Assembly: GCF_030684315.1 (NCBI RefSeq)
Contig: NC_081369.1
Span: forward strand, 2,656,689-2,720,688
Length of the DNA stretch: 64,000 nt
DNA from: Stegostoma tigrinum
Taxonomy: Eukaryota
Direction of reading: 5' to 3'
Shown: positions 2,351 to 59,609 of the stretch, piece after piece
Position numbering within the stretch: the first letter of the stretch is position 1
How the letters are laid out: every line of letters starts with the position of its first letter
Notes under the pieces: model-generated
Told to the model about the DNA's origin: nothing
Seen by the model: the letters and a program-made list of their open reading frames with translations, nothing else
Databases searched by the model: none
Translations under genes and position numbers: made by a program

Positions 2351-2646
2351 CTTCTTTCGCAATAGTGTATCTGACATTTGCTGGAAATGAGTTTGAAAAG
2401 TGATGCGCTTGACAAGTGTAAACTGTGTCACATGCGACTGCCTCTGACACCTCTAAAGTGCTGACAACCTGAGAGTCTGTTGATGTTTACTTGTTGTTCA
2501 TTTCTAAATCCAGTCAAGACTTTTGTATTGTCTTTGTGCCAAGTAAAATTAAAGTCTTTTGGGTAAAAGGCAGAAGCCCTGCACTATAGAATGAAAGATG
2601 CATCTTCCAATGGTACTGGTCACAATTTTCAGGGGAGCTGGTGAAG
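2351..2646 (-). pseudogene. IgSF receptor pseudogene D, C1-set exon
   Basis: AG/GT-bounded phase-1 exon reading ASPAPLKIV/..L*CRASAFYPKDFNFTWHKDNTKVLTGFRNEQ../VVSTLEVSEAVACDTVYTCQAHHFSNSFPANVRYTIAKE; close paralogue of the exon at 19966-20271; stop plus two frameshifts (296 vs 306 nt). Confidence 0.9.
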
Positions 2647-3355
2647 CTGAATTGTAAATAATAGAATTCAGATCAATCTGAACATTACAATCCTACTCCA
2701 AAGCTTCAACAATTCAATGAACAAACCATTCGCAGTTTCAGGGCACGGTTTTTTCATCAGTCATCATTATTTGCTTGGAGTAAACGTCACTTTTATCATA
2801 GTGTCCCGCACTTCACCGCCCCCGCCCAAAGCAATTGATGCACCATTTTCAAGTTCAGCAAAATTGTTTTTTTTTACTTAAATATGTATAAATTATTACA
2901 AATATATTCAGGATGTTATTTTGCATTCTTCTCGTAACAGCCGATTTGGAACTGGATTCTAGATTGTAGAATCTGCGACAGGAAGACGACAGGAATTATG
3001 TTTTCAATGAGATACCAGGATATTCAAAATCTACAATGCTGCAGATAATATTTGTATCTCTTCAAATTGTTTCCGGATGTTGAGATTAGAAAAGAAAAAT
3101 GGTTGGCTTTGAAGTTTGGTATTAACTTACTCTGCATTATGTATATTCAACTCAATTTTCAATTGAAGTGTAAATGGTAATCTTCACACTGTGGCATGTT
3201 CCTAAACGTTTCTCAGATTGTTGACAATTTCCTTCAAAAGAAGTTGAATATCCATGTGAAATATATATATATATATATATTTAGGAAAATGAATTTTAAC
3301 CATTGTCATTATTTGTTGCAGGTAAGACACCATGTTTGTCTGTGGTGACACATAC

Positions 3356-3687
3356 CATATGCAGTAAGTTGCACAGCAGTTTCTTTCCCGACCGTTCGAT
3401 GGTGACACTTGACCGCACAGTAAAATGTTTCAGTATCCAGGATAGTCACATTCAAAAGATTAAGGTAGGCTGCTTCTCCACCTCCATGAATAACTTACTG
3501 CTATCTTCCAGCAGAAAGGTATTATTATCTTCTCTCCAACGGTAAGCGACGATATTTGAATGGTTGATTTCAAAGGAGAAAGGACATAGCAGGGCAACTG
3601 ATGGACATAGCAGGGCAACTGATGAACATCTCCGCGCGGTTATTCATTTATGATCCAGCTTTACTTTGGCTGAAATGCCCATCGCAA
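3356..3687 (-). pseudogene. IgSF receptor pseudogene D, V-set exon
   Basis: VAMGISAKVKLDHK*ITARRCSSVALLC(PSVALLC)PFSFEINHSNIVAYRWREDNNTFLLEDSSKLF/GEAAYLNLLNVTILDTETFYCAVKCHHRTVGKETAVQLTAY; paralogue of V exon 18140-18448; stop, frameshift, 21-bp duplication; intact AG/GT. Confidence 0.9.
3582..3623. repeat. Exact 21-bp tandem duplication (ggacatagcagggcaactgat x2)
   Basis: Directly visible; duplicates the codons around the first V-domain Cys. Confidence 0.95.
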
Positions 3688-5153
3688 CTATGAACCAAAG
3701 ATACTCAATGAGATTAAACATTAAATACTCGAAGTGAGATTGGGTTTGGCTGCTCCTTTTTTTTCACCAGTACAGACACCTTGCTTCTCTGGGTTGTAAG
3801 CATTTTCTAATTTTGCGAAATGTCCGATGACTGTTGTTATAATAATTTGAAGGACGTGGGGATTTCGGCTGAAACTACAGCTACAGACGTATTAAAAAGA
3901 AGAAAGTTGAGCACAATTAATCCCCTCTGACTCATATAGGTCTGAAAGGACTGCGCAAGAGTGTCAGATTAACTTGTCTGAAATCCCCTTCCTCATTACT
4001 TTTCAGCATCATGTCTTTGATTGTCAGATATTGTATGTACAATTCATTCTCTGTGATTTTTCTGAGTGGCCCTTTTTACCAATAACACCCACTGAAGACA
4101 TGATGTCTGTTTGACTAATCTAATGAAGTCAATTATCAGTTGGTGTTGATTTGACTTTCTATCTTTGTACTGAGCCAATAATTGTTGTCAAATATGGTAA
4201 TCAAGTACCACCATTTATGTAAACAAAAAGTGCGGGAGATCACAGCGGGTCAGGCAGCATCGATGAAGAGAAAGCAAGATAATGTTTCACGTGGCAATGA
4301 CACTCAATCAGCTCAGAGCTTACGAATAGTCAGATCGACTCTCAACATTAACTTGTTGTCTCTGTATGGATGCTGTCTGACCCATTGTGATCACCAGCAT
4401 TTTTATTTTCAGTGCAGATTCCAGCATCTGCAGCAATTTGCTCCAACACCATTCATGTGTTTTATTCATGTGCATTCACCGTCTTTACAAATACCTGGTA
4501 ATAGCTGTCTAGATCACTTTGTTTCCTTCTGACTTGTTATTGTCCATGTGACGAAATTAACATTTAAGAGAATGTGGTTGCCGATCAAAAGTGTTTTATT
4601 TCTTGTGAGGTTCCATTCTCCTGAATTTGTTATCGTTGCTGTCATCTCGGTAGTGGGAAGTGGAAGTGTTCCAGAATACTTTGTAAGTGGCTTGACTAGA
4701 AGTTAGACATTCCCGATTCATAATATGGATCATCCATCACAGAAGACAGACCCTCTGACATGGCCCTGAATTCCAGTTACATAGTCCCTTCCTGGCAGCA
4801 CGTTGGATAGACATGAACCACATTGTCTGCACCCGTTCAAGAAGATGGCTCACCATCAGTTTCCAAAGGAACTCAACATCCAAAAAAAGCAAACATTCCG
4901 CTTTCTTGTGTATCAGCCTATTCCCAAATTGTATTTGTTGTTTGGATAGAATGCTGACAGTGGCAGTAGAGCACAAATTCCAAATACATGTTGCCGATAC
5001 TGACAGCTGAAGAAATATCTTCAGAGCCCAATGTGAGATTAAAGATAAATAAACCTTATCAATGCGGGAATGTCATAAAAGGAACTTGTGTTTTACAGAA
5101 CACACACTGTTTCTTTTTATGATTTTAACTAATTCCAGGCAAGGTTACAATTG

Positions 5154-5877
5154 GAGATAATGGGAACTGTAGATGCTGGAGAATTCCAAGATAATAAAAT
5201 GTGAGGCTGGATGCACACAGCAGGCCAAGCAGCATCTCAGGAGCACAAAAGCTGACGTTTCGGGCCTAGACCCTTCATCAGAGAGGGGGATGGGGTGAGG
5301 GTCTGGAATAAATAGGGAGAGAGGGGGAGGCGGACCAAAGATGGAGAGAAAAGAAGATAGGTGGAGAGGAGAGCATAGGTGGGGAGGTAGGGAGGGGATA
5401 GGTCAGTCCAGGGAAGACGGACAGGTCAAGGAGATGGGATGAGGTTAGTAGGTAGGAGATGGAGGTGCGGCTTGAGGTGGGAGGAAGGGATGGGTGAGAG
5501 GAAGAACAAGTTAGGGAGGCAGAGACAGGCTGGGCTGGTTTTGGGATGCAGTGGGGGGAGGGGAAGAGCTGGGCTGGTTGTGTGATGCAGTGGGGGGCGG
5601 GGACGAACTGGGTTGGTTTTGGGATGCAGCGGGAGAAGGGGAGATTTTGAAGCTGGTGAAGTCCACATTGATACCATTGGGCAGCAGGGTTCCCAAGCGG
5701 AATATGAGTTGCTGTTCCTGCAACCTTCGGGTAGCCTCATTGTGGCACTGCAGGAGGCCCATGATGGACATGTCATCTAAAGAATGGGAGGGGGAGTGGA
5801 AATGGTTTGTGACTGGGAGGTGCAGTTGTTTATTGCGAACCAAGCAGAGGTGTTCTGCAAAGCAGTCCTGAAGCCTG
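5154..5877 (-). mobile_element. Penelope-like element 3' fragment (GIY-YIG C-terminus plus terminal repeat) with 13-bp TSD
   Basis: ORF 5511..5843 HLPVTNHFHS...EQQLIFRLGTLLPNGINVDF; TSD aaggttacaattg at 5141-5153 and 5878-5890. Confidence 0.9.
5251..5285 (-). ncRNA. Minimal hammerhead ribozyme motif in Penelope terminal repeat
   Basis: Reverse complement reads ctCTGATGAagggtctaggcccGAAAcGTCagc: CUGAUGA core, stem II, GAAA, GUC cleavage triplet. Confidence 0.7.
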
Positions 5878-7380
5878 AAGGTTACAATTGAACTACTGTT
5901 TGGTTGTTGATTGTTTTGTGAAATTGCCGAGAGTATGAATCATTTTCCTTCGCATAAAAATTGATCACTAGTACGCTTTACTTTTGATTGCAATGCATAA
6001 TGATCATGTTCTTATTGTAGATCAAACACATAATGAAATCATTGGCATTTTAAAGTGCCTGTACTTGCTAATAATGTAAGCTTTCAAATACGCTAACAGA
6101 TATCTTATTAAATTTCCAGGACACAAATGACAATCTCACCAATTTTGTCTCCGTTACCAGAATTAACAAAACAGCTTTTGTTTGATGAATTCATGTCAGT
6201 CATTCATGTTGTTGTGACATGTACGTCATTGAATGTTACTGGAAGAAATACACAAATATTTGTATCACAGACATGATAGCTGTTATTTCAGTAAATCCAC
6301 TGATAAATAACACTCATCTTGATAAATATAATCATCTTACCACAGAGTGGAAGCTGAAAGAGTTCCAGTCATTTGAGAAGAAGAAAAGAGGAATCGGAGA
6401 ATTGTGGGTCAGTGAATGGCAAGATGGACACAGTTTAATAAAATAAGAACTTAGGACTACAGCAACAATCAAGACTTGGTGTTAGATTTAATTTAAATTG
6501 ATTTATTGTAATCCCATGTTGCTAATTACAGTGAAAAGTTTAGTTTTTCCAGCAGTACAGGCAGATAACAAACAAGTGCATCCAGGTGCTTAGACAGAGT
6601 GGTGCATACAGGTTATGGCTGCACAGGAGATGCATAAAGCAAGATCAATATTAGCAGGATCGGCATTATTTGAAGTTAGAGAGGTCTGTTCAGCAGTCAA
6701 ATAACAACAGGGAAGAGACTGTTCTTGAACCTGTTGGTGCATGTGTTCACAAAAAAAGACAAGAAAAATGCCTCTGGAGTTGAAAATGTGAGCATTCTGA
6801 AGAAATTGAACAAACTGAGACCACACACTGATGTAAATAAGTATAGTTGACAGTCATTAGGGAAACATGACTGTAATATGACAAATATTGTGTACTGATT
6901 ATTTATGAGTATATAATAGTCAATAAGAACAGGACACCAGGTGATGGAGGGTAGCATCCCATTGTTAGAGTTATGAACGGTTAAAAATAATCATGTTTGA
7001 AAAACCATGATGAAGAATTAGTTCGGGTAGGAAAGAGGGACAGTAGCAGAAAGAATCACCAGTGGGATTGGTCGAGAAGATAATTAACAGTAATCGCAAT
7101 GTGGGACGGAACATTCCAGATCACATATTGAGAAATAAAGTAAAAAACTGCTGTCGCTTGAAATCAGATACAAAAACAGAATTTGCTGGAAAAGCTCAAA
7201 AGGTCTGGCAGCATCAGTGAAAAGAAAGCAGAGTTAACTGTTTGGTTCCAGTGGCCATTCTTCAGAACAGATTGTAGGCAGGAAAAAGATTAGTGTATAT
7301 CTTGAAGGTCGCTTAGGAACGAGAGGAGCCATCTGCATGCATTGCGAAAGTTTTTTTTGTATTTTATCTTCATCTTAATG

Positions 7381-7700
7381 GAGCAACACAGTGGTTAGCA
7401 GTTCTGCCTCACAGTGCCAGGGATCCTGGTTTGATTCCTCAATATGTGACATTTGCACATTCTCCCCGTATCTGTTTGGGTTTCCTCGAGGGGATCTGGT
7501 TTCTTCTCACAGTTCGAAGATGACCAGCGTCGGTGGATTGGACATCACACATTGCTCATGGTATCCAGAGGATATGTAGGCTGTGTGTATTAGCTTCAGA
7601 GATAGATAAGGGTGTTAGGTCTTGGTGGGACACGCTTTGGAGGGTCAGTGTGGGCTTTATGAGCCAAATGGCCTGCTTCCACTCTGAACTTCCATAATTC
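7381..7700 (+). mobile_element. HE1-type V-SINE (tRNA-derived), diverged
   Basis: A/B-box-like head (cagtggttagca...ggtttgattcc) and V-domain tttgcacattctccccgt. Confidence 0.8.
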
Positions 7701-8539
7701 TAATCTTGTTCCCGTGGTTATATTCCTTCCATGAAGACAGCTAACTGCTCTAGCGTACAGTTTGACTTCAAACACCAGATTGTTTTAGCCAGAAATCTTC
7801 CAAAGCCATTTGATGTCAACTGAGAACCACCTTCACCCATGGGTGGCCCGAACAGTTGCAATAACCGAGACATGGGTAAAGGAAGGGCATTATTAGCAGC
7901 TCAACATAACAGGGTTTATAAGTTTCAGGCATGAATAAGGGCGATGCAAGAGAGGTTGGAACAGCTACTTGTGTGGGTAAATCTACAGCAGATGGGTGGT
8001 GGCTGGGGAGAGAGGGGGGAGAATGGTGATCAAAAATGAAATGGGGAAAGTAACGTATTGTCGATGTTTGTAATGAAGTTCAGTACCTAACTGATTTTCT
8101 ATTTGGTTTTCTGAATTAACTGGAATTTTGGTGAAATTCTGCATGAATGTTATCTAAATAGCATCATGTGATATTGATTTGCAAATGTGTGCTAAGTTTA
8201 ATACCTGTTGATGAGCCTTCAGTACATTGCACAATCCTGTAGAGATGGAAAAGCTCCTTCATGCATGAGAGACCAGCAGGAGACTACACATGTTTCTGAG
8301 AATACTAATGGCTAACTGTCCTTAGACACATTCCCACCATCTGTTAAATCTGTTGTATTTCTCATTTACTTGAGAAAAATTGAGATAACTGCACGGAGGG
8401 AGGCATGCCATCACCAAGTCCCCCTTTACTTCCATGTGCACAGTACACTGGCTGTGGTCAGCCAGCTCAGAATCAGCCTGAAGGGAAGAGATTCTAAATG
8501 CCCTGTTCATGTTTTTTTTCTTTTGTTTATAACCCCATA

Positions 8540-9438
8540 TATACAGAAGTAGTGTTTATTTTCCCCAGCGCCCATGTTGTGTGTGTGCAGGTGCAAGACT
8601 CAGTAAAAACATTACTTCTTCAAATAAATTTATTAATATCACACCACCAGTGATGTGCAGAACCCCAGCAGTGGCAATGTTCGTGTGAGAAAAATGTGAA
8701 AGGGAGGGTAGGGATCAATTCTAAACAGAATTGGAAGGGCAGATGAAGGGCCTAAGCCCCCGCGGTGCCCACTGCTCCCTAAAGGCTTCAAGAATTTCTG
8801 CGCACAACGTGTGGTCCTTTTCCAGAGAGACCCGAGCTCAAACATAGCCACGGATGAGGATCAGACAGTCAGTGCAAATGGTCCCCCCCACGGCCCGCTG
8901 CCTGGACCTGTTAATGACCTGCTTGGCCAGACCCAGGAGCAGACCCACGAGGAGATCCTGTGACCCACTTGCCCCTCTCCACACCGGGTGCCCAAAGATC
9001 AGGAGCGTGGGGCTGAAGTGCAGCCAGAAACATAAAAGGAGGGCTTTAAGATAGCTGAAAAGGGAGTGCAAATGCCCACACCCAATATCCACATGGTCAT
9101 GGCCTCCACAGTGCCACAAAATAGACTGGGCTGGGAATCCATGAAAAACCGCAATCTGCAGTTCCATGGGACTGCTGTGTGCAACACCCTGTCCCTAAGT
9201 GCCCGAGGCAAAGCGGGAGGGCTCCTGCGTAGAGAACCGTCGACTGTGGGTCCCTGCCACCCAGTAGTAAATGGGCACAGCAAGGTGTGCTCAGGCAGTG
9301 GGTGAAGGAGAAGAGGCAGTTGGTGTACAGCAGCAGCTTGCCCTGTGTAAATTGGTCAGCCAGGGCTCCCTGATTGGTGCAGGTTAACAGCTTCAGTCAA
9401 GGACCTCAATATGATTCACCTGGTTCCAATCATTACAC
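8540..9438 (-). mobile_element. Tx1-clade non-LTR retrotransposon, deleted copy
   Basis: ORF2 C-terminal motifs RVLHTAVP.N.RL..F.DSQP.LFCG and FWLHFSPTLLIFGHP...LLVGLLLGLAK.VINRSRQRA. Confidence 0.8.
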
Positions 9439-9914
9439 AAACAATCAATAAATTCTCCAGGTCACCTCATCTCTGACTTTCCTCCAACAGACCGAGACTG
9501 TCTTCCAACCTGAATATGCCCCACCCGCTTCATTCTTCCTGACCTATTTCCAGATTTTAAAATGAATGGCAACAGAGCAAAACTCTAGGTACTCAATCCC
9601 CAGTTTGCTGTGGAATGTTGTACATTTCCACCACGTGATGTTTAGAGCTATCAAGGGGTCTTTCCAATTACTGCCATTTCTCATAATCATGTTGCTTCTG
9701 AAGGTCAACATCATGAAACATCGTATCCATTCCCAAATGTATATTTTAGGATACTAGATGTAAGGTCATAATCACCTTATTCGAACCCAACGCGCTATCC
9801 AAAAACTCTCAGACTGATATCCATTATTGAATGAGCTAACATTACATTTGATCAATCAAAACATTTAGTCTCCATCAACAATACTGTTTAGCTATCACAG
9901 AGTCCATCTATTTT

Positions 9915-10385
9915 GTTTGATGATGTTGCTGGGGTTGGAATGTTTGAGCTGTTGAGAGAAGCTGAGTAGACAGGGGCCATCTTTCCTGCAGTATCAGAGA
10001 CTGAGGAGTGACCTTATAGACGTTTATAAAATCATGAGGGGCATGGGTACAGTGAACTGCAAAGGACTTTTCTCCAGGGTAGGGGTGACAAACACTTGAG
10101 GGCATGTGTTTTAGATGAGAGGAAAACCTTTAAAAGCAACTTCAGGGACAACATTTTCCCACAGAGTGTGGTGCATGTCTGGACTGAACTGCCAGACAAA
10201 GTGGTGGTGGCTGGAGCAATTCCAACATTTAAAAGGCACCTTGCTGGGTCCATGTATAGGAAGGGTTTAGAGGAATGTGGGTCAAGTACTGACAAATGGG
10301 ACTAGATTAATTTAGGACATCTGGTCGGCATGAATGAGTTGCACTGAATGGTCTGTTTGTGTGTTGTACAAGTCCATGACTCGAC
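9915..10385 (+). mobile_element. CR1 LINE 3' end
   Basis: RGDLIDVYKIMRG...FPQSVVHVWTELP...FKRHL motif and typical tail. Confidence 0.8.
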
Positions 10386-12567
10386 ACCAGGTTTTATGCA
10401 ATACTCATGGACATCTTGCAGGGGAGTAATATCAAAGAAAAGAAGAAATTCTAACCAACATCAGAAAGCAAATGCTATTCCAAGCTCAAAGGATAACTAT
10501 CTTAATTTTTATCGCTTCTTAAATAACACAGGGCTGAAATCAAGTTAAATATTGACTCAAACTTTGCGTCAGCCCCATAGTTCAGTTGCATTTAAAAATG
10601 CATTCGATGACATGTATGCAGTATGTTGTCATTTTTCCAGGTTGTTGATATGTTTGAAACCTCATGTCATTAAAAATCTGTTGCAGCAGTGTGGACAGTT
10701 ATTAGGAGCATAAATAAGGCAGATAGGGATAAACATTTCCCCTTAGTAGAGGCATCAAAGACAAGGTGCATAAATTAATGTTGAGGAGCACATGATTTAG
10801 AGGATTTAGAGGGTACAGAGGAAAACACAAAATAAATGTCATTTCAAAGAGTTGTGAGTATCTTGAGCTAACTGTCTAAAAGAGTAATAGACGTTGGAAA
10901 CCGCAAGACATTTCAGAAAAGAATTAGGTGAGTACTTGAAACCATGCAGCATACAAGGATACAGGCCAAGTGCTGGGAAATGTGATTTAAGTAAGTCAGT
11001 GCTCAATGACCAACACACACACATAATGCCAAAAGGCAGCTTTCCTTGCAGTTAAAAAAATGTGACTCTGAATCTCGCATCAGCATGTTTATTGTTTATT
11101 GTTTAGGTTTGGGACTGTTACGCCCATATCTACCTGGAGATCATCACACCATGGTTCATGTTACCGTTCAAGGGCAGTTTCATCAACAAACATCAGACTC
11201 AAATAAACTCTCCGACCTCCACCAGCTGTGGCTCTGCAATGCAGGTGTCAGATGTTTTGATGCAACGTGTAATTTATTTAAGAATGTGATAAAAATTGTA
11301 ACAATGAGAAATGAAAGTAAGCTGTTCGAATATTAGCAAAAATGTTAACTTGTGACTTTGTCAATTTTTAATTTTTTGATCATATATCATTTTTCAAAAT
11401 TAGTAAGTTTTATTCTTCAGAATGCTGAACCATAAGGGGAGGAATGTATATTTCCAGAATACCAGTGCCAGCAGTTCAAACCTAGGCAGGATGTGGTGAT
11501 GTATCTCACTTTCAGTAAAGGTGCAGTGCAGTTAAAGTGTTAAATAGGGAGGGCATTTCACAATATGTGGGTGTATTACTTGGAAGTTCCACGATTCAAC
11601 TGGTACAGAGGAAAACACAAAATAAATGTCAGAAAGGACAGATACGGTGAAACAGAATCTTTTGCCGAACATATGAAGTATAATGACTAAATGTAAAATT
11701 AGTGTTAGGGAATTCAGATCAAAATCAGTCATGATGGTGGTGTTTGAGAGGAACAAATGCATCAGAGGTAAGCATAGCAGGTGGGTGAGGAGTTATGGAG
11801 AAAGGTTGATGAGGAGCAGTGACAGGAGGTTTACGAATGAGAGGGGAAGATGGGTTGGATGGGATGAGATGTCTAAGTCTGTGGTGGGAGTGTTAGACAT
11901 TTGTACGCAGTGCTTAGTCCCTTTGGGTGAGGATCAGTTTCCTGGAGGGTCCAAGTTAAACAGATCTGGTAAGATGGAGCTGTCTCTCAGGGTGGAATGG
12001 GGTCTGTTAAACAGGAGTCAGATTTTTCATTACACAGGAGTCAAAGCAAGTTTTATTCTGATAGTTTTTTTTTCCCTTGTGACACAGAAACGTAGAGTGT
12101 AGGAGCGGGAGTAAGCCATTCCGTTCTTTGAGCGCGGTCGAATCTGTATGATCTTGGCGTATCATCCAATTCAGTCCCCTGTTCCTGCTTTCTCTCTGTA
12201 TCCAATGATCCATTAAAACCTATATCTACAGCTTCCATGTAATTCACAAGAAACAGGTACATAACAATCAGAGATAATGCTCAATAATCTCAGCATGTTT
12301 GGCAGCACCTGTGCAAACACAAAGATATCGAGTTAATATTTCCTGTCCAGTATGACTCTTCTTCAGAGCTGCTAAGTTAGCTGGAACCCCCTGAAGCCCG
12401 CGTCTATAACTCAGAGTGTGATCTGTTTCAGGGAGCTCCAGGCACCAGATGACTTCTAACTGGAAATGTAAACTTCCCAGACACTTAACACAATATCAGT
12501 AAGTCACAACTTCCAGACATCCCAGTTGCACCTAGTCACCGAGTATCCAGGGACTGGAAGAACTGAG

Positions 12568-12698
12568 ATAACAAGGTGTACTGCTAGATGAACACAGCAG
12601 GCCAAACAGCATCTTTCTCTGCTGCTTGGCCTGCTGTGCTCATCCAGCTCTACAGCTTGTTATTTTGGATTCTCCAGCATCTGCATTTCCTATTATCT
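12568..12698. mobile_element. Mini fold-back Penelope-terminus insertion
   Basis: Inverted copies of gatgaacacagcaggccaa; TSD ctggaagaactgag / ctggaaaaactgag; paralogous sites at ~14416 and ~40178 are empty. Confidence 0.8.
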
Positions 12699-12874
12699 CT
12701 GGAAAAACTGAGCTTCGTACAAATTCCCATTGGTTCTCGTGGTGTTGGTGAATGAATAAATTCAACTCGTGCTTGTTAATATGATGTTTTTTTTCCTGCA
12801 CATTTTATTACACGACATTTTACCATGCCTCAAACTGGGCATTCACCAAAGGTGATAACAAGGTGTGGAGCTGG

Positions 12875-13992
12875 ATGAACACAGCAGACCAAACAGCATC
12901 TTTAGAGCAGGAAAGCTGATCTTTCAGGCCTAGACACTTTATTAGAAATGGGGGTGGGGAAGAGGATTCTGAAATAAATAGGGAGAGAGGGGGAGGCAGA
13001 TTGAAGATGGATAGAGGAGAAGACAGGTGGAGGGACAGAGAAGTCCAAGAGGCAGGGGTGGAGTCAATAAAGGTGAGTGTAGGTGGGGAGGTAGGGAGGA
13101 GATAGGTCAGTCCAGGGAGGATGGACAGATGAAGTGGGCAGGATGAGGCTACTACGTAGGAGATTCAGGTGGGGCTTGAAGTGGGAGGAAAGGATAAGTG
13201 GGAGGAAGAACAGGTTAGGGAGGCGGGGATGAGTTGGGCTGGTTTTGGGATGCAGTGGTGGGAGGGGAGACTTTGAACCTTGAGAAATCCACATTGATAC
13301 CAAAGGGCTGCAGGGTTCGCAAGCGGAATATGAGTTGCTATTCCTGAAACCTTCAGGCAACATCGTTGTGGCACTGCAGGAGGCCCAGGATGGACATGTC
13401 GTCTGAGGAACATGAGGGGGAGTTGAAATGGTTTTCGACTGGAAGATGCAGCTGTTTATTGCGAACCAAGCGTAGGTGTTCTGCAAAGCTGCCCCCAAGA
13501 CTACACTTGGTTTCCCCGATGTAGAGGAGGCCACAATGGGAACAGCGGATGCAGTATACCACGTTAGCAGATGTGCAAGTGAACCTCTGCTTGATGTGGA
13601 GGGTGTTCTTAGGGCCAGGGATGGGGTGAGGGAGGAGGTGCTGTGGCAGGTGTAGCACTTCCTGTGGTTGCAGGGAAATGTGCTGGGTGTGGTGGGGCTG
13701 GAGGGGAGTGCGGAGCGGACAAGTGAGTCATGGAGAGAGTGGTCCCTCCGGAAAGCAGATAAGGGTGGGGAATGAGAAATGGTGATGGGTTTGGATTGCA
13801 AATGGCAGAAATACCAGAGGACGATGTGTTGAACTGGCAGGTTGATAGGGTGATATGTGAGGACGAGGGGTATTATCTTTTGGTTGTTATTGTGGAGACG
13901 GGGTGTGAGGGATGCATTGCAGGAAATGCGGGAGACATGGTCAAGGGCGTTCTCGGCCACTGTGGGGGAGGAAGTTGAGGTCCTTGAAAAAC
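12875..13992 (-). mobile_element. Penelope-like element (RT C-terminus, GIY-YIG endonuclease, terminal repeat)
   Basis: ORF 13353..13658 FTCTSANVVYCIRCSHCGLLYIGETK; ORF 13064..14107 IPLVLTYHP. Confidence 0.9.
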
Positions 13993-14906
13993 GATCATCT
14001 AATTCAATCCCCTGTTCCTGCTTTCTGTCCATATACAATGATCCATTAAAAACTATATCTACATGTTTCTTGAAAGTCTTCAATGTTTTTGTCTCAACAG
14101 TTTTCATTTAATTAAGAAGTAACAGGTAAGTAACAAACATAATGCTTGCAAACCTCAACATGTTTGGCAACACTTGTGCAAACAGAAAGAAATAGTGTTA
14201 ACATTTCCCATCGAGTATGACCCTTCCTCAGAGCTGCTAGGTTAACTAGAACCCTCTGAAGCCCCCGACTCTAATTCAGAGTGTGATCAGTTTCAGTCAG
14301 ATCCTCATACCAGGTGATTTCCCTCTGAAATCATCAACTTCCCAGACACTTAACACATGTAGTAAGTCATGACGTCTAGACATCCCAGTTGCACCCAGTC
14401 TGCAAGTATTCAGGGACTGGAAGAACTCAGCTTCATGGAAATTCCCAATGAATGCCATTGCATTGGAGAATGAATAAAAGTAACTTGTGCTTGTTTATTT
14501 GATTATTTTCCTGCACATTTTATTACAATACATTTTATCACGCTTCAAAACTGGGCAGTCGCCAAAGGTGAATGTGGAGCGAGAAATATTTCTTAGATGC
14601 CAGAAAGCCAATTGTTTTTTCAAACATTTTTCATTTATCGATAATTTCTTCTTTGCTGAAAACTACTTAATGCATTTCTAATCAATTAAAAAATACACCA
14701 CATGGTGGCATGCATATCTGCACAACCGTGTTAATGTCACTCCATCAAAGTAAGCTACCATCTGTGGTAACTGACAACAGGTTTGTGCTGAGAAATTGTG
14801 CAACTTGGAACCATTGACATGTTGGTTTATTGTGCAAGACATACCATTCAACTGAGCTTATAGGCAAGTTGAAATATTGTAGAGCTGAGCTCAATACATG
14901 AAACAC

Positions 14907-15270
14907 AGGGAGGTGATGGTCTAATGATATTATCACTGGACTGTTAATCCAGATGCCCAGGTAATGTTCTAGGGACCTGGGTTTGAATCCCATGATGGAA
15001 GATGGTGGAATTTGAATTCAACAAAAAATCTGGAATTAAGAGTCTAACGATAACCATGAGACCATTGTACAATTGTCAGGAAAATCCCATCTCGTTCACT
15101 TTCGTCCTTTCGGGAATAAAATGGCCTTCTTTACCTGGACTGATCTACCTGTGACTCCAGACCTACAGGAATGAGGTTGACTCTTACATACACTCTGGGC
15201 AATTAGGGATGGGCAATAAATGTTGGCTGAGTCTGTGATGTCTTCATCCGATCAATGAATACAAAAACAA
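14907..15270 (+). mobile_element. tRNA-derived Deu-SINE (SacSINE1-like)
   Basis: tRNA-like head gggaggtgatggtctaatg...ggacctgggtttgaatccca, core ccttacctggactg..ctacctgtgactccagacc, LINE-derived tail gggcaattagggatgggcaataaa. Confidence 0.75.
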
Positions 15271-16699
15271 AACGCCTTTAAAATCATAAGTGTTTAATTT
15301 AGTTCTAATATTATTGAGCATCTAAGCTTTGGGATGTTTTAGATTTCAATTACTTACATATTTTGTCAATGAACTGCAGATTTGCTGGCTCTCTTTCAAA
15401 CTCATGTTAAATGATCCGAACACCATTGCAGCAGATCCCATTTCTGCAGTCAGTCATTTCACATTTATTGATCAATGGAAAACAAGAAAACACATACATG
15501 ACAGGACAAGAAGACACCAACTTTTTAACAACTGGGTCAAGTTATGATTCAAATCTCATGGCTTAAATTTCAAAATAAATTTCAACAGTTTCTAGAAAAG
15601 TCCAGTATTGTGACAACACAGCAACACCTGGAAGACCACACATCACAAACGTAACGCTGAAGACAGGTCAAGTCAGTCCACATGATCTCCAGTAATAGAG
15701 GATTTCTTAAATTATAAAGCATAGCTCACACATATCGATTCTCGGCTGGAAAATTTAAATTTGAGTTGTCTCCAAAACTACCTTGTTTCTGATTTAATAA
15801 TGTACTGGACTTGTTCCACTGAATATTGTCAAATGGAATTCATGTTTTTTTTTACCTGATGTGTACATAGCTGGTCATCTCACTGATTGTTCACAGTTAA
15901 TTGTCCTTAAGAAACTGGTGTTGATCCTTCTTCAGGAACTGGTGCACTCAGTGTGGCTCAGATCCATCCAATATGTTGCAAAGAGAATAGGTAATTTTTA
16001 TCCAGGCGAAACTCAGATGATTACAATTCCAAGGTAGGTGACCCATATCATAACTGATGACTGCCTATCTTCTATCCAAAGGGTACAATTGCATAATATT
16101 ATGGAGCATTTCCAGTTACCATTACCGAGATGAAAGCAGTTGTGACAGAACTCCAGAGAGTAGCAACGTCCAGGACAAAGCAGCATATTTAATCTGAAAA
16201 CACTGTTTTAAATTATCATTTTACCTTACACGTAATATTAGCACTTCAGAAAGAAACAAACTGATCTCGGCAGTCATTGACAGGCATTGGTAAAGACAGC
16301 GAATTAATATGAGTAGCACATATGAGCAGCAAACCTGTGGTATGTTTAAATTGAAAACATTCATTTCATACTGAGCTCCCTTCCGAACATCTATATTAAA
16401 AAGGATCACAACATATAAAAGCAATCACCGCTTTTCGGCCTTTACATGGTCCTAGATCCTTTTAAGCCGTGGAGTTGACAGATTCCCGAGACCGAAAATA
16501 CTCAATGCGGTTTCCTTACGATGAGAGTATTTCTTGACAGCACTCAGGTGGAGCATTGGAAAGAAAGTTGCCGAAGCACCAGCACAATGCGATAAATGAA
16601 TCATTCAATAACCAGCTTGTATGTCACGTCGAATGATGAAACAATGTCACAAATTACAAGACTTCTAAATATATTTAAACAGAATAACGTAACGAACCC

Positions 16700-16840
16700 G
16701 AGAAGACAAAATGTAGAGCTGGATGAACAAACGTCAGTCTTCCTGCTCCTCTGATGCTGCTTGGCCTGCTGTGTTCATCCTGCTCTACACCTTCTTATCT
16801 CAGATTCTCCAGCATCTTCAGTTCCTGCTATCTCTGAAAC
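16700..16840. mobile_element. Mini fold-back Penelope-terminus insertion with 14-bp TSD
   Basis: TSD aacgtaacgaaccc at 16686-16699 and 16841-16854. Confidence 0.85.
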
Positions 16841-17763
16841 AACGTAACGAACCCAACAGGAAGATCAAGTGCTCTCGATTTTAAATTCGTAGAGGCACTT
16901 AAAAGGTAATAAGAAACAGGATTTCGGCAGGGTAATCTGATATTGCTGCTCGTTTCTTCAGGATGCTATGGGTGAGAGATTTATAATTGAGCCCCACTTT
17001 CCTCCTTGCATTCCAAGATGTAGCAGCAGTTTCTCCTCCATGTCCTTCAAATTGCTACAGTTGCAGTGGGCAGCTTCTTCCCAACATTTCATTTTAAGAA
17101 GCTAACAACACTGAAAAGCAAAAGCACTTGTCCGTGTCTGCCGAACAAGGAGCCAACAAATCAAAGCATACTATCGAGGATTCAGTGTGAAGCCTTGCAG
17201 ATTATAGCATTTCAACTGCACATTCGAGCAAAGACAACTTGTAAAAGGGATAAAGGTGCCTGTCACTGATATCTGTTCAGGCAACAGGTTCCACATTGCT
17301 AGCACACTCGGGGATAAATTGTTTCATCATCACCCCCTCAAACTTTTCCATCAATGTCTCTAAGTCTATCACCCCCGCCTCACTGACATCAATATGAAGG
17401 TCACTGACATTTTCCCCACCGGCCCATCTCAGTTTTGTGCATTCCAATGAAATTCCCCCTCAGACTCATATTCTTTCCGTGTTAAAATCTTCATCCCATC
17501 CAATCCAATCACGTCTCAACAACAACCTCCCAAATACCGTCTATACCTCCTCTAGTGTCATAATTTTTGTAGCAGCTTCCAGCTGCAAAACCAACAGATC
17601 TTATTTGAGAAGGCGTGCGTTTTTTACACTCAGAAAGTAGTCATGTGCTCATTGACGCACACATGCATACATGAATAAGTTGGAGACACAGCTGAGCATT
17701 TAAGAAGCATTTGTCAGTCCTGTTCTCAGTCACAACTAATGGTCTCAGATTTTCGCTGCCAAT

Positions 17764-17818
17764 ATGTCTACGTGCCAATCACTGTGGGATGTCCGTCTGC
17801 TGTGCATCTTATGCGGAG
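17764..17818 (+). CDS. Gene A exon 1, probable leader (MSTCQSLWDVRLLCILCG)
   Basis: ATG to phase-1 GT donor 321 bp before the V exon; joins to give LLCILCGAAVG; the donor gtatat is weak. Confidence 0.55.
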
Positions 17819-42077: not shown

Positions 42078-42340
42078 CATGAATCCTGTAACTGACACTG
42101 GTTGGGAGCTTGAGTGCGACATGGAAAATCTGGCACGTCTCAACCGATCCGCTCTCCATGTGGAAGCGTTAAACAAACTTTCCTCTTTCCAGGCGTTCGT
42201 TGTATTGATCTCAGATGTAATCAGGATATCATTTTTATACCAAACTACGTGAAATTCCCCTGAGAAAAAAGGAACTGTTGTGCTGAGGAGAGTGAGAGAC
42301 TGAACGGACAAATGTGCAATCTTCACTGGAGTTGGTGACA
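42078..42340 (-). pseudogene. IgSF receptor pseudogene C, C1-set exon
   Basis: VSPTPVKIAHLSVQSLTLLS(C lost)TTVPFFSGEFHVVWYKND...SLFNAS/GSVETCQIFHVALKLPTSVSYRIH; AG/GT intact, internal deletion and frameshift. Confidence 0.85.
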
Positions 42341-42479
42341 CTGTGAATATATTTATGTAAATATGTATTAAAACGCTATTAGTACATTTTCACAGCAAAA
42401 TAAGTGAAGGGATGAATGCCTCCTTTAAATAGAGATCAACTAATAACAGAACTACTCCTTTACTTCAGAAACCCCAGTG

Positions 42480-43879: not shown

Positions 43880-44205
43880 CATCGGGAAAACAACCATCAT
43901 CAAAAAGCCCCTCCCACCCCGATTGTACTCTCTTCCACACTCTTCCTTCGGGCAGAAGATGTGAAAATTTTGCTACACAGATGATCAAATTCAAGAACAG
44001 GTTCTTTCCCGCTGCTATCAGGCTTTTGAATAGACCTCCTTAATGTTTATGCTGGTCACCCTCTGTACTTTCTGGGCAGCTGTAACACTGTATTCTGGGC
44101 TCTCCATACTCTTACCCTGATGCACCTGTACAGTGCGATATGCTTGTAAAACATGTAAAACAACACTTTTCACTGTACCTCGGTACACATGACAATAACA
44201 AAGCA
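43880..44205 (+). mobile_element. LINE 3' tail (Rex/Babar-like)
   Basis: IIK.P.HP..LF..LPSGRR...FKN.FFPAAIRLLN-like terminus. Confidence 0.55.
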
Positions 44206-47173: not shown

Positions 47174-47493
47174 CGTGCACGATAAGACTCGACACAGTTC
47201 CATTGAAAATCTTCCTGCCCCGACCCTAATGCTGCAATAATAGATTCCGGAGTCCTGGAAATCTAGATTCAGCAGTTGGAACTTGTTAGATCCATGCTTG
47301 AATGGGAACATGAGTTTCCTTCGGTCTGCCGTCAGGTTTAAAGTTTTGTCCTGGTCGCCACTCCGCCACTAAACGTCCACCAATGGGTTCTGATCGAATA
47401 GCGGAATGGAACAATAGATGGACACATTTGTTCCTTCCAATGCAGTTTGGCTTGCGGGGAACTGAGTCACAGAGAACGTGGTTTCATTGGTAG
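47174..47493 (-). pseudogene. IgSF receptor pseudogene C, V-set exon
   Basis: ATNETTFSVTQFPASQTALEGTNVSIYCSIPLFDQNPLVDV*WRSGDQDKTLNLTADRRKLMFPFKHGSNKFQLLNLDFQDSGIYYCSIRV/GRKIFNGTVSSLIVH; ctgacag| and |gtaagt; one stop and one frameshift (320 nt). Confidence 0.92.
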
Positions 47494-47692
47494 CTGTCAG
47501 AAACAATAAAATAAACATAGACATATATAAGCGTGGATTCGAAGCAGAAATTTCTACACAGTTTTTCCTCACTTTGTTTTTATCCGACAGGTTTTGGTTT
47601 TTTATACCTGTGTAAATAATGCCCAAGGCTGATAGGTACCATGCTCTTTCACGTACAGACATTTTGACCAACGTTGATAAAATCAAACTCTC

Positions 47693-48848: not shown

Positions 48849-48967
48849 TTCTTTTAGTGGAAACTCGATGTTGCTGGTCATAGCTCAGAGTTTCTGCTGG
48901 GATTACACTCATGCTGCAGGTAATCGTGCTACTCAATGCTGCTGAGGACTGCAAGTCATAAGTGTGA

Positions 48968-50600: not shown

Positions 50601-50604
50601 GTTT

Positions 50605-53829: not shown

Positions 53830-55949
53830 ATGCTCTGAGTCTTACTTCACTGCGCAGCCATGTTAGTGATCAGTTACAGAGGTAAATTTGATACATGGTC
53901 CTCTTCCCAAAGGATCACGGCTCTTTCATTTTGTTAATGATAAATATGTATGAAAGTTTTTATTCAGCCTTTCCTGTCAGGCTTAGTTTTTCAACATGTG
54001 CGTCTTTTCCTAACATGTTCAGGGTTTGTTATGGGCTGTTTAATTGAATTGTCAGAGTTTTAATTTTGCCCTTTTATTTGCGACAGGCTCTCACAATTCC
54101 CAATTCATCGTGACACAAGTTCCAGAGTCTGCAATCAGGTGAGGTGCCTCCGTTACTCTTTTTTGCATTTACCCGATCTTTACAGAAAAAAAGTCAGTGA
54201 GCGTGCAGTGGTGGACAGATGGGTCCTTGGAGGAAAGTTTGGATTGCATAAACCATCTTTATTTCCTCAATCAGGGAGGAGCTGCCCTACAACTGGCAGA
54301 AGTAGGAGTGGAAGGCGCCGGGCTTTATTACTGCAGAGTGACACACGACGCGGTTGGAAACGGAACCTGCACTAACCTGGTTGTGTACGATAAGTATCAG
54401 GGAGAGGGAGAAATACCGTGCTAGTTGTGCATTTCTTTTTAAGCATTAAGCTGAAGAAATGTTAAAATGCAGATTCAATTCAAAAAGAAAAAATGTGTAA
54501 TCTTCTGTTATGATCTTACCACCTTTTGACGGAGGAGCGGAGGAAGACCCATTGGGTCAACTCCGCCAATAAATGATATAGCTGATTGGATAACCCTCAA
54601 TTCCGCTTTCCTGCCTTTCCCTAAAACCCTTGACGTAGTTACGAATGACAAATCTGCCTAAGGTAGTACAGAATATATTTGCAAACCGAATCTCAGCAGC
54701 CCACTGCGATAAAGCATTCTACACACTACGCTCCGGCAGAACAATTTCTACCTTATTTCCGTTTTAAATGAGTGACCTCTTATTCTGAGATTATGCCCAC
54801 TAGTCTTAGCCTCTCCCACAGGGCAAATAACCTTTTGTGCATCTATAATGCCAAATCCTCCATGATCCTTTTAAAATTCAATAAATTCTCTTCTTCGTTT
54901 TCCACATTTCAACACATACAAACCCACTCTGACCTTTGTTTTTTTAATTAGACGTGGGCTATGACAGATACCTCGCTGACAAAATGTTACTGTTCCCAAT
55001 GAACACGAAAGCGTATTTACTTAAACCTTACATGCACTTCCGCTGAGTTTACATTAAGTTTATAATTTGTTGAGTGCGAGTTTCACTCAATTGATCACAT
55101 CCACTTCCTGTATTTTGTGTCGGGAGTTTTTATTGTGTTCTCAAAAGCGATCTCCCTGGTGGTGGGGACATAAGTATCTCGCTCGCAGAAGGGAAATCAC
55201 ACTGAAGGAACATACATCTCATAACTGGCATGAATTATTCGAAATATGATGTCTTGCACAGTTAATACTTGGAGAAAAATGGCAGAAGATTGAGTCACTG
55301 AAATAATCAACTGATTGATTTCAGAGATTTCAGAGAAGGTGTCTTGCCGATGAAAATTTAAAATCAACACTTGTTTTGATTCCAACTCTCTGATGTTGAA
55401 ACTGCGGTATTATTTATAACTTTCCCCTTTAAATGACTGCAATTCGGCGCTGACGAACATTTTCGTTTTCTCTTCCAAAAGAACCAGCAGATTTTTCGAA
55501 TTGCGCAGTTTCAACTATTTACCATCTGTTTAAGTGCACGATCTTTGCGGTTTTCTGGTTCTGTTTGGGCCTGTGACGGAATTCTGCATCAATATTTCAA
55601 ATTAAATGCAGGCTGAAAAACAAAAGCTTTCTTTTTTGTCAGTCCCTCCGACTCTACTCAAAATAGTCATCAAGCTGCCGTAGAACGGAGCAACTGTTTC
55701 TCTAACTCTTCTCTGCATAACTGCTGCGTTTTTCCCAGATAACCTGAACATCACTTGGAACAAAAATGAATCAGAAATTGCAACCGGAACGGAACATGCA
55801 AACTGCAGATTGCAATCTGGCTGTATGAGGCTTGCAGAAAACGAACTGAGGCAGAACCCATTCAGAACCCATTCAGAGCGGTACCTGTCAAGTCTCTCAC
55901 ATCTCACTTGGGACACCAGCCAATGTAACCTACTCTTTCATTAAATTTG
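53830..55949 (+). pseudogene. IgSF receptor pseudogene B: leader 53830-53881, V 54087-54389, C1 55643-55949
   Basis: Leader ML*VLLHCAAMLVISYR|gtaaat; V GSHNSQFIVTQVPESAIR*GASVTLFCIYP...VQWW...GAGLYYCRVTHDAVGNGTCTNLVVY with donor mutated to ataagt; C1 VPPTLLKIVIKLP*...LLCITAAFFPDNLNITWNKN.../TCQVSHISLGTPANVTYS with frameshifts. Confidence 0.9.
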
Positions 55950-57300: not shown

Positions 57301-57809
57301 TAGAGGAGGAACTGCAGATACTAGACAATCTAAGAGAACAGGGTGCGGAGCTGGATGAACACAGCAGGCCAAGCAGCATCAGAGGAGCAGGAAAGCTAAC
57401 GTTTCAGGTCTTGCCTTTCTTCTGACCTATTTTCTGAAGAAGGGTCTGAAACATTAGCTTTCCTGCTCCTCTGATGCTGCTTGGCCTGCTGTGTACATTC
57501 AGCTCTACACCCTGTTATCTCAGTGAATATCGAATTGTTCACTTCTTAGGAATGGCATGTTCAATGACATGGTAAAAATAAAGTGCCTGCAGCGACACTA
57601 CACAGTTCAGCAATTGTACTGTATAGGCAAATGGTAGTGAAATTTGTGTTGTTCAGAAAACTAATGGAAGACTTCTAAGTGAAGCACTTTTATCAATTTA
57701 AGAATGGGCAGCAAAGTGTATTGTCTCAAGGTTATCGGCAATATTAAACACTTTATATGTCATTTTATTTCCAACTTTGTAAAGACTGTTCCCTTCGTTT
57801 GGACTGCAG

Positions 57810-57990
57810 CCATCTCATTTTCTGTGGCTCAGTTGCCAAACTGTTGATTGTGAGAAGTATGCAGTCTGAAAACTCACACATATTTCTATGAATTAATATG
57901 GACACAAGGTAGTATCCAATTTTGCTGAATCTACAGGTGATGTACCAATTGCATTAGGAGTTCACGAAGGATAAAAGTAACAGCAAACTC
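57810..57990 (+). pseudogene. Highly decayed V-exon remnant (pseudogene E)
   Basis: ctgcag| then AISFSVAQLP (compare FSVTQFP); tccaattttgctgaatcta and ttgcattagg echo tccaactgctgaatcta and ttgcagcattagg of V exon C. Confidence 0.4.
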
Positions 57991-58020
57991 TACCAGCACA
58001 AATAAGGACAATGAAATAAC

Positions 58021-59609
58021 TATATACGCCTCAATCAGGGCTCCCCTCAACCTTCTCTGCTCCAAAGAAAATGTTCCGCACTTCTCCAAACACTTCACAG
58101 CTAAAATGACCCAAACCAGCTAGCATCCTGGTGAATCTTCTCAGCAGCCTCCCCAGTGCAATCAAATCTTTCTCTTTTGTTCATACGCAGAAAGAACAAT
58201 TGATTAGTTAATGAAATCACCTTTTTGAGTAGAAGTCTAATGTCCACATTTATTTTAATGCTATGGTTTACAATGCAGCTTTACCAGCTCCCCTAAAAAT
58301 TGTATCGATCCATTCCAAATATTCTTCATTTGTTTCTTTCAAGTTGCAGTGCAGGACATCTGGCTTTTATACAGAAGACTTTAACATTACTTGGCACTGA
58401 ATCGATACACAAATCTTCATTGGATTTAAAAATGTAAAACAGGCAAAAGGCGAGGAACTTTATGAAGTGGTCGGCCCTTTGGATGTGCCAAATATACCCA
58501 GAAGTGATACAGTCTACATGTGTCAATTACATCACATTTTGAGCACATCTCCAGCAAATGTCAGCTACACAGTTCCAGAAGAAGGTAAGATTCTTGGACA
58601 CGTTGTAGGTTAATCTTTCAGACATCGCATAAAAATGTTGAAGAAGTAGAATTTGATTACCACAGTCAATTCCCTCTGATTGCGTCGATCCTGAAATTTG
58701 ACGTTGCATGGTTAAAGGTTTCCTTTAGTCAGCTTATTCCGAAACGTGCAGTATTTTATCATGTAAGAAACAGCCAAGAGTCGAAATTCATCATTGAGAG
58801 GTCTCATAACTTAGATTAGACACATAATGTTCAAATTCATTTCCGAAGATAAGCTCAGTGTCAGATTGGACGACTGGATACAGCAAAGAGTGCCAAAGGA
58901 TAGAGAGGAATATCGGTCAATAAATGTGTTGCTGGAAAAGCAGAGCAGGTCAGACAGAATGCAAGAAGAAGGAATGTCAATGTTTCGGGCCTAAATCCTT
59001 CTTCAGGACATTGAATTTCCTGCTGCTTGTGTGTTGTCTGACTTGCTGTGCTTTATCAGATCGACATTTACTGATTCTAGCTTCCACCATCTGCAGTCCT
59101 TACTGCCTGAGAGAGGAATATCTTCAGGTTATACAGCACAGAAACAGCACTTTGGTCCATTGGGTCCACCTATTTACACTAATCACATTTTCCAGCACTT
59201 TGCCGAAAGCCTTGAAAGTTGTGACATTTTAATCACTTGTCCACTTACATTTCTTAAAGCTTTCCCTCCTACACGAACCTCCCAGGCAGCACATTTTTGA
59301 TGCTCAATACCCGCTCGGTGGAAAATATATTTTCCATGTTGCTCTAAACCTCTTCACTTTGCCTCTACAAATTATGACTTCACGTTATTCACCCTTCAAA
59401 TAAAGAGAACAGTTGCTTGTAATCCACCTGTCTATTCCTTCATAACTGTATACGCCTCAATCAGGGATCCCCTCAACCTTCTCTGCTCCAAAGAAAACAG
59501 TCCGCACTTCTCCAAACACTTCACAGCTAAAATGTTCCAAACCAGCTAGCATCCTGGTGAATCTTCTCGGCAGCCTCCCCAGTGCAATCAAATCTTTCTC
59601 TTTTGTTCA
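58021..59609. repeat. ~160-bp near-identical direct repeats (58021-58181 and 59447-59609; CR1-derived) flanking a C1 exon
   Basis: tatacgcctcaatcaggg...aatcaaatctttctcttttgttca occurs twice with the same right breakpoint. Confidence 0.85.
58279..58584 (+). pseudogene. C1-set exon of pseudogene E (gene-A type)
   Basis: ALPAPLKIVSIHSKYSSFVSFKLQCRTSGFYTEDFNITWH*IDTQIFIGFKN...LYEVVGPLD...VYMCQLHHILSTSPANVSYTVPEE; 306 nt, AG/GT intact, single TGA at 58398-58400. Confidence 0.92.

What the first reader, a model, noticed from the sequence alone, without database searches (positions are those of the whole stretch)
2351..58584. Birth-and-death cluster of five V-C1 receptor genes in two subfamilies, arranged as head-to-head pairs
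Seen: D (-, 2351-3687) and A (+) are divergent and share one V type (SAKV..D, EDS.KLF, AVQL..Y) and one C1 type (PAPLKIV). C (-, 42078-47493) and B (+, 53830-55949) are divergent and share a second V type (F.VTQ.P, NGT) and C1 type (V.PT..KI). E follows B. Four of the five carry stops, frameshifts or dead splice sites. Inference: a rapidly turning-over immune receptor complex like the KIR/LILR/NITR/SIRP clusters, built by inverted duplication; activating partners may lie outside the window.
Basis: partly seen in the sequence, partly recalled or inferred. Interest (0 to 1): 0.7.

Follow-up and report, generated by a model that had tools for sequence, protein, structure and literature searches.

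The report
Shark receptor pairs sharing binding domain
The window holds one intact and four broken copies from a cluster of 35 antibody-like surface-receptor gene units in a shark genome; the intact gene is likely an immune brake, and a twin 160 kb away has the same predicted binding domain but a charged membrane residue and a cut tail, so the two likely work as an off/on receptor pair kept alike by gene conversion.

Summary
Largely real, but described too tidily. The window has four V exons and five C1 exons; E has no V. Only A is intact (leader-V-C1-TM-four-tyrosine tail). The lesions are biological: several are shared with duplicated copies, and read contigs match B and E. The window is a slice of a 0.9-Mb cluster of 35 V/C1 units (16 with both exons open); a second cluster lies 6 Mb away; relatives occur in sharks, rays and chimaera. 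Head-to-head pairs are at chance frequency (8 seen, 8.2 expected) and were copied as blocks. B and C are separate old lineages. The main result lies outside the window: A's twin A' shares a 915-bp identical tract over the V exon, while their tails are only 70-78% alike; A' has a TM Gly-to-Arg change and a 2-nt deletion removing three tyrosine motifs. Two more such pairs exist in this genome, and one in horn shark. V exons diverge faster than C1 (dN/dS about 0.8 vs 0.3). It looks like a paired-receptor family: SIRP-like in layout, not shown to be SIRP (one C1, sits beside SLC38A8). Expression, ligand and adaptor are untested.

The parts
2351..2646 (-). D, C1 exon, pseudogene (two frameshifts)
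   Evidence: a 2-nt deletion is shared with two other D-like copies
3356..3687 (-). D, V exon, pseudogene (TGA, 21-nt duplication, frameshift); no leader or TM exon found
   Evidence: the TGA is shared with the copy at C19:2,761 kb
3700..17750 (.). D-A spacer; parts of it recur with the other D-like/A-like cassettes (71-84% identity)
17764..17818 (+). A, leader exon (not used by the RefSeq model P0002)
   Evidence: homology to the P0001 leader; ATG and GT donor
18140..18448 (+). A, V exon, open; G strand in the same exon, without the GxG motif
   Evidence: Pfam V-set E 9.5e-11
18157..19071 (.). 915-bp tract identical to A' (C19:2,514,986-2,515,900, inverted); likely gene conversion
   Evidence: contigs over it have about twice the depth of flanking contigs
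19966..20271 (+). A, C1 exon, open
   Evidence: Pfam C1-set E 4.5e-14; FYP, 13 residues Cys-Trp, VxH as defined in PMC2785349
21751..21864 (+). A, transmembrane exon, no Arg
22268..22314 (+). A, first cytoplasmic exon
24538..24648 (+). A, cytoplasmic exon with tyrosine motifs 1 and 2 (LTYAAL, TVYAE)
24792..24920 (+). A, last exon with tyrosine motifs 3 and 4 (LTYLAL, PVYAAV) and stop
42078..42340 (-). C, C1 exon, pseudogene (first Cys lost, deletion with frameshift)
47174..47493 (-). C, V exon, pseudogene (TAG, 1-nt deletion), 313/320 identical to C'
   Evidence: both lesions shared with C'
47608..47662 (-). C, leader exon
   Evidence: similar to the P0099 leader
53830..53881 (+). B, leader exon with a stop at codon 3
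   Evidence: similar to the P0024 leader
54087..54389 (+). B, V exon with J-like end, pseudogene (TGA; donor GT to AT)
   Evidence: dead donor shared with B'; contigs of X1 and X3 match with 0 differences
55643..55949 (+). B, C1 exon, pseudogene (TAG, frameshifts)
   Evidence: TAG shared with B'; contigs match from 55669 on
58279..58584 (+). E, orphan C1 exon with TGA; V exon absent; two TM exon copies lie beyond the window end
   Evidence: contigs match with 0 differences

Best explanation
The window is part of a clustered, fast-turnover family of single-exon-V, one-C1 surface receptor genes of cartilaginous fish, in which A likely encodes an inhibitory receptor and its twin A' likely an activating partner for the same ligand, their V exons likely kept identical by gene conversion. 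Shown: A has an uncharged TM and four tyrosine motifs; A' has the same V protein, a TM arginine and a 2-nt deletion that removes three of the four motifs; D, C, B and E are dead. Inferred: A would recruit SHP-type phosphatases through its ITIMs; A' would pair through its arginine with an ITAM adaptor (FcR-gamma- and CD3-zeta-like TM exons are in the genome); the inverted duplication would let the two arms recombine, and selection would favour tracts that keep the binding domains of brake and trigger matched, as for Siglec-11/16. The likely driver is pathogens that exploit the inhibitory receptor (by analogy only).
For: Identity gradient between A and A': V 308/309, C1 280/306, leader 44/55, tail region 70-78%; dS 0.014 in V against 0.243 in C1. 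The 915-bp tract is the longest exact match listed in 1.06 Mb and shows about double contig depth. TM GGT to CGT and the 2-nt deletion. Second pair: F/F' V 308/312 and C1 306/306, F followed by a tail with the same Arg and the same deletion, F' by a tyrosine-motif tail. Third pair at C19:10.22/10.26 Mb: 199/200 over V and 197/200 over C1 against about 80% flanks, one with Arg. Horn shark P0006 (Arg, short model) and P0016 (ITIMs) are 87% identical overall and closest in V; its Arg sits at a different TM position. Short-tailed Arg-TM members at C19:2.25 and 9.66 Mb and in other species. dN/dS 0.43-1.55 for V (27 pairs, A/A' left out) against 0.19-0.43 for C1 (28 pairs) among 8 open exons of each kind. 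Adaptor TM exons.
Against: No expression, ligand or signalling data. A' keeps one ITIM-like motif (LTYAAL), and its Arg lies mid-helix, not at the outer position seen in the short-tailed members. F has a stop in its V exon, so that pair is not functional in this assembly. Dead C/C' also share a high-identity V tract (313/320), so conversion happens without a working pair; B/B' are unconverted (257/291). High-identity windows: 4 of 7 V, 1 of 4 C1, 23 of 204 other; small numbers, not independent. The read sets come from one study, at most two samples, and may be the source of the assembly. Pairwise dN/dS values are not independent and near 1 could mean relaxed constraint. Direction of conversion was not determined.
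Confidence: 0.65

Rival explanations
1. These are the shark SIRP genes: true orthologues of SIRP-alpha/beta with one C1 domain, moved to another chromosome, and A reads a CD47-like self marker.
For: RefSeq names; the family profile aligns with turtle SIRP-alpha over V, C1, TM and a four-tyrosine tail (prob. 99.5, E 8e-23); human SIRP-alpha is the best non-antibody receptor by profile, rank 4.
Against: One C1, not two; turtle SIRP-alpha finds only C1-type hits in this genome apart from one weak V-region hit on another contig; cluster lies beside SLC38A8, SEP-domain genes are on C5 and C23, and no family Ig domain was found in 200 kb around the C23 one; the tree keeps SIRP-alpha outside the family plus the coelacanth protein (96/89), though on a long branch; activating types use Arg.
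Confidence: 0.2
2. A' is a decaying or merely weakened inhibitory copy; the identical V tract is neutral arm-to-arm conversion in an inverted repeat and there is no functional A/A' pair.
For: Conversion also covers dead C/C' and F with a stop; A' keeps one ITIM; 19 of 35 units are broken.
Against: A' V and C1 exons are open with C1 dN/dS 0.19 against A; the same Arg is in the epaulette shark model P0003, so it is old; Arg plus tail loss plus V matching recurs in other pairs.
Confidence: 0.25
3. They are B7-like ligands (B7-H6/NCR3LG1 type) rather than receptors.
For: V-C1-TM layout; some RefSeq names; B7-family chains give the best two-domain structural overlap with the model (PD-L1 TM-score 0.75 by target, B7-H6 0.66).
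Against: Tyrosine-motif tails and Arg-TM forms; J-like G strand; weaker profile match to a turtle B7-H6-like protein (E 4e-14), which falls outside the family. The interdomain angle of a model is soft evidence.
Confidence: 0.07
4. The stops, frameshifts and the identical tract are assembly or polishing errors.
For: Highly duplicated region; the read sets may be the assembly's source.
Against: Lesions are shared between copies only about 88% alike or less; contigs match B and E exons with 0 differences; the tract shows about double depth.
Confidence: 0.03

Closest known systems
SIRP family (SIRP-alpha/beta/gamma; PMC2785349 and PMC3716694, passages read)
   Same: V domain followed by true C1-set domain, clustered genes, inhibitory member with four tyrosine motifs, activating relatives.
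   Different: One C1 instead of two; Arg rather than Lys/DAP12 (Lys is recalled); different chromosomal neighbours; 35 or more copies; CD47 binding unknown.
[quoted passage not shown]
   Same: Inhibitory and activating genes in opposite orientation whose ligand-binding exons are homogenised by repeated gene conversion, with pseudogene alleles taking part.
   Different: Unrelated ectodomain (V + C2, sialic acid binding); 9 kb apart against 160 kb here; function shown there, inferred here.
NITR of ray-finned fish (bioRxiv 2021.06.11.448072, passages read)
   Same: Large cluster of unrearranged V(J) receptors with TM and tail exons.
   Different: Second domain is I-type there, C1 here; holostean flanks are runx1/donson; the paper cites lack of evidence for NITR in cartilaginous fish.
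UrIg/UrIg2 and NKp30, non-rearranging VJ genes (PMC12227049 part 1 read; PMC10751288 passages)
   Same: Single-exon VJ-type V domain; C1 domains in UrIg.
   Different: UrIg is secreted, has three C1 domains and is linked to MHC or antigen-receptor loci; NKp30 has no C1 (recalled); this family is membrane-bound with tyrosine-motif or Arg forms.
RefSeq models named SIRP-like, NCR3LG1-like, tapasin-related or Ig-lambda-like in sharks, rays and Callorhinchus
   Same: These are the family itself.
   Different: Automatic names are inconsistent; the model of A starts in the wrong exons.

Membership tests
Paired Ig-like receptors (definition in PMC3716694) | Different genes in a cluster | tested here: met
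   35 units in 0.9 Mb
Paired Ig-like receptors (definition in PMC3716694) | Similar extracellular domains | tested here: met
   A/A' V identical in protein; F/F' and the 10.2-Mb pair 98-100%
Paired Ig-like receptors (definition in PMC3716694) | Inhibitory and activating members, by sequence motifs | tested here: met
   Tyrosine-motif tails against Arg-TM short or cut tails
Paired Ig-like receptors (definition in PMC3716694) | Opposite signalling and overlapping expression shown | not testable with these tools
   Needs RNA and cell assays
SIRP | V + two C1-set domains | tested here: not met
   One C1 exon between V and TM in A
SIRP | True C1-set hallmarks (FxP, 13 residues Cys-Trp, VxH) | tested here: met
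   A C1 sequence against PMC2785349; Pfam
SIRP | ITIM-bearing tail in the inhibitory member | tested here: met
SIRP | Location beside NSFL1C (recalled for human and chicken) | tested here: not met
   SEP genes on C5 and C23, cluster on C19 beside SLC38A8; no family hit in 200 kb at C23; which SEP gene is NSFL1C was not settled; the C5 locus was not fetched
SIRP | Groups with SIRP in a tree | tested here: inconclusive
   One SIRP row, long branch, outside the family
SIRP | CD47 binding | not testable with these tools
   Pfam CD47 search rang nowhere, controls included
NITR | V + I-type second domain | tested here: not met
   Second domain is C1-set
NKp30 | Single V domain, TM Arg, no ITIM (recalled) | tested here: not met
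   A has C1, no Arg, tyrosine motifs
B7-H6/NCR3LG1 | V-C1-TM ectodomain | tested here: met
B7-H6/NCR3LG1 | Groups with B7-H6 | tested here: not met
   Turtle B7-H6-like row outside the family; one outgroup row only
Rearranging antigen receptors (Ig/TCR) | Split V and J with recombination signals | tested here: not met
   G strand is in the V exon; 4 RSS-like hits in the window, none at a V end

The most novel reading that the evidence does not exclude
This is the main paired-receptor complex of cartilaginous fish: an unnamed VJ-C1 family older than the shark-chimaera split, with a possible coelacanth relative, close to the precursor shared by SIRP and antigen receptors, that keeps making activating partners from inhibitory genes by gaining a TM arginine at different positions, cutting the tail and re-copying the V exon across inverted repeats.
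Probability: 0.3. Interest if true: 0.75.

Novelty: new variant of a known kind. Interest (0 to 1): 0.5.

Why it matters
Sharks are the oldest living group with antibodies, T-cell receptors and MHC, yet the papers I could search name no inhibitory/activating receptor cluster for them. A family of 50 or more unrearranged V(J)-C1 receptor units fills that gap with testable candidates. The A/A' pair is a clean experiment: identical binding domain, opposite predicted outputs. If true, the Siglec-type strategy of pairing by gene conversion also operates in cartilaginous fish, and the V-C1 layout bears on the origin of SIRPs and antigen receptors. The five-gene window alone is ordinary pseudogene debris around one good gene.

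Tried and rejected
Head-to-head pairing as a design: at chance level. Two subfamilies: weak support. V exon for E, and TM exons for B, C and D: none found. Leader for D: none found. Assembly error: rejected. RSS: none at V ends. Expression: no RNA holder listed, no evidence either way. Complex of the A' TM with two FcR-gamma-like TM chains: no verdict, score 0.18 against a mark of 0.34. PDB sequence searches with single domains gave only generic Ig hits; Foldseek ranks were flat across B7 proteins and light chains; the Atlas gave unnamed V-C1, light-chain and SIRP clusters at equal scores. PSMF1 and CD47 family searches rang nowhere. TM exon of the gene at C19:2.13 Mb not found. The automatic exon check mis-scored two open exons (V 2,190 kb, C1 2,878 kb), corrected. 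Runs X5 and X6 (another organism) covered little but repeats. Papers not held: Ohta 2019 (J Immunol), Ohta and Flajnik 2015, Flajnik 2012 and 2023; they may mention these genes.
Full report
Check of the observation. Profile searches built from the cluster find four V exons and five C1 exons in the window and nothing else of weight, so E is an orphan C1; homology to the intron that precedes it in a relative ends at 57525, beside repeats. A is a complete seven-exon gene. D, C, B and E carry stops, frameshifts or a dead donor, and no TM exon was found for D, C or B. The window is G000:C19:2,656,689-2,720,688; the proteins matching A and its twin carry RefSeq names from Stegostoma tigrinum.

The lesions are real. 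C shares its TAG and 1-nt deletion with C', B its dead donor and C1 TAG with B', D a TGA and a 2-nt deletion with other D-like copies. Contigs of runs X1 and X3 match B's V exon, B's C1 from 55669 and E's C1 with no differences (2 of the 4 runs laid, the other two being another organism). These runs are one study and may be the assembly's source.

The cluster. I fetched 1.06 Mb around the window. It holds 32 V and 32 C1 exon hits that make 35 units between 2.128 and 3.009 Mb. Sixteen have both exons open (two entries corrected; one has lost a V cysteine), 19 are broken or partial; four of five dead in the window is therefore unremarkable. Nineteen more V hits lie at 9.18-10.26 Mb and one at 13.68 Mb (lower bounds; all 43 matches on C19). 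I sampled that second cluster only in part. Relatives with the same layout occur in sharks, rays, a skate and Callorhinchus under inconsistent automatic names (names looked up for 30 proteins, of which 25 were cartilaginous fish). Most V exons end in a J-like GxG motif within the exon; the A lineage has lost it. No recombination signal lies at a V end.

Arrangement. Eight divergent neighbours among 35 units is what shuffling gives (8.2). The D-A spacer recurs at three other places, and the stretch from A to beyond the window has an inverted counterpart at 2.42-2.52 Mb, median identity 89% over 215 windows. So inverted duplication is real, but at the scale of about 100 kb. Trees put A and D in sister groups, E's C1 in a third group, and B and C together only weakly. 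B has a 57% identical relative in Heptranchias, C relatives in Hemiscyllium, Cetorhinus and Heterodontus, so they are old separate lineages.

The pair. A' lies 160 kb to the left on the other strand. A and A' are identical over 915 bp covering nearly all of the V exon and part of the next intron; C1 is 280/306, the leader 44/55, the tail region 70-78%. Contigs within the tract have depths of 15-18, 16-21, 37-40 and 10-21 in X1-X4, against 9-11, 7-8, 15-23 and 7-10 on the flanks, which fits two real copies. A' has CGT where A has GGT in the TM exon, and a 2-nt deletion that destroys the second tyrosine motif and puts the last exon out of frame. The tail behind F (2,753-2,756 kb) has the same Arg and deletion, and F's ectodomain is 99-100% identical to F', which has a tyrosine-motif tail; F's V has a stop. 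A third pair lies at 10.22/10.26 Mb (no tyrosine exon found within 30 kb behind the Arg gene). Horn shark P0006/P0016 repeat the pattern with Arg one residue earlier (protein models only). The epaulette shark model P0003 has the A'-type Arg. A separate short-tailed Arg type, of the form that FcR-gamma-linked receptors use (recalled), occurs at 2.25 and 9.66 Mb and is scattered over the family tree. Two adaptor TM exons with the acidic residue exist (the CD247 and FCER1G labels are from recalled sequence features). Against a purely selective reading, dead C/C' are also converted over V, and B/B' are not.

Selection. Among 8 open V and 8 open C1 exons of the A/F group, pairwise dN/dS is 0.43-1.55 for V (A/A' pair left out) and 0.19-0.43 for C1. 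This fits diversifying or relaxed evolution of the binding domain; the pairs are not independent.

Mechanism. Shown: gene structures, lesions, identity tracts, motifs. Inferred: A signals off through ITIMs; A' signals on through an ITAM adaptor; conversion between inverted arms keeps their V matched; copies are born by block duplication and die often. Ligand unknown.

Relation to known systems. It works like SIRP-alpha/beta and, in the conversion, like Siglec-11/16 (PMC5701461, passages). It fails SIRP membership on domain number and location: the cluster is followed by an oxidoreductase exon (OSGIN by recall) and SLC38A8, and family members and SLC38A8 share contig lengths in Chiloscyllium punctatum, Heptranchias and Mobula birostris. 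A coelacanth V-C1 protein is the nearest outside relative tested (E 3e-28; tree 96/89, 33 of 37 rows used, 4 outgroup rows besides it). A structure model (pLDDT 80) confirms a V, a C1 and a TM helix but does not discriminate.

Literature. Ten searches found no description of this family. Seen: PMC12227049 (first of eight parts, and a term search), PMC10751288, bioRxiv 2021.06.11.448072, PMC3964593 (main text and its one held supplement, term searches), PMC13262535 (places the SIRP cluster at Tetrapoda), PMC5701461, PMC3716694, PMC6795676, PMC2785349 (all passages only). Four relevant papers of the Flajnik and Ohta group were not held, and the bioRxiv supplements were not seen; prior mention cannot be excluded. 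Earlier notes of this scan describe the same family; they are unchecked leads, and the conversion test was run after I saw one that suggested conversion.

Verdict. Observation partly confirmed; interpretation partly supported. The window itself is one likely inhibitory receptor among relics; the interest lies in the converted off/on pairs and in the unnamed family. Interest 0.5.

Noticed in passing
window 9271-9384 and 11106-11318: The RefSeq model of A (P0002) starts in two exons in the duplicated D-A spacer; similar pieces occur at other cassettes. The homologous leader is at 17764-17818. Model P0007 likewise begins with sequence like window 42842-42964.
   Followed up: partly
window 29000-31700: Fragments of an LTR-retroelement-like pol region (weak RNase H hit, integrase-like ORF) between A and C; observed only.
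   Followed up: no
window 35240-40610: A second copy of part of the D-A spacer (8.9-14.9 kb) lies between A and C, 70-81% alike.
   Followed up: partly
G000:C19:2,619,729-2,648,310 (L047-L050): Recent 14.3-kb tandem duplication at 97.8% giving two near-identical V-C1 units, only one with a TM exon found.
   Followed up: partly
G000:C19:9.22-9.61 Mb (L152-L155): Several near-identical V-C1 units about 78 kb apart, with no TM exon found in the 10 kb sampled; possibly secreted forms or a recent tandem array.
   Followed up: no
G000:C19:2,594-2,602 kb (L044-L045): A third A-type gene with open V and C1 but a stop in the last exon that removes the fourth tyrosine motif.
   Followed up: partly
G000:C19:2,211,543 (L106): Short-tail TM of the activating type with Gln where relatives have Arg.
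   Followed up: no
G000:C19:3,008-3,026 kb (L119-L121): Broken C-type V followed by a tail piece like that of Arg-type P0113; no C1 found between.
   Followed up: no
G000:C14:31.99-32.14 Mb, C15:76.96-76.98 Mb, C20:34.38-34.48 Mb: Other C1 domains weakly similar to A's, not identified.
   Followed up: no
P0141/P0172 (Latimeria), P0159 (Protopterus): Lobe-finned fish C1 receptors with tyrosine-motif tails; the coelacanth one is the nearest outside relative tested.
   Followed up: partly
L091:2034-2672: Rhodopsin-family GPCR exon on the left of the cluster.
   Followed up: no
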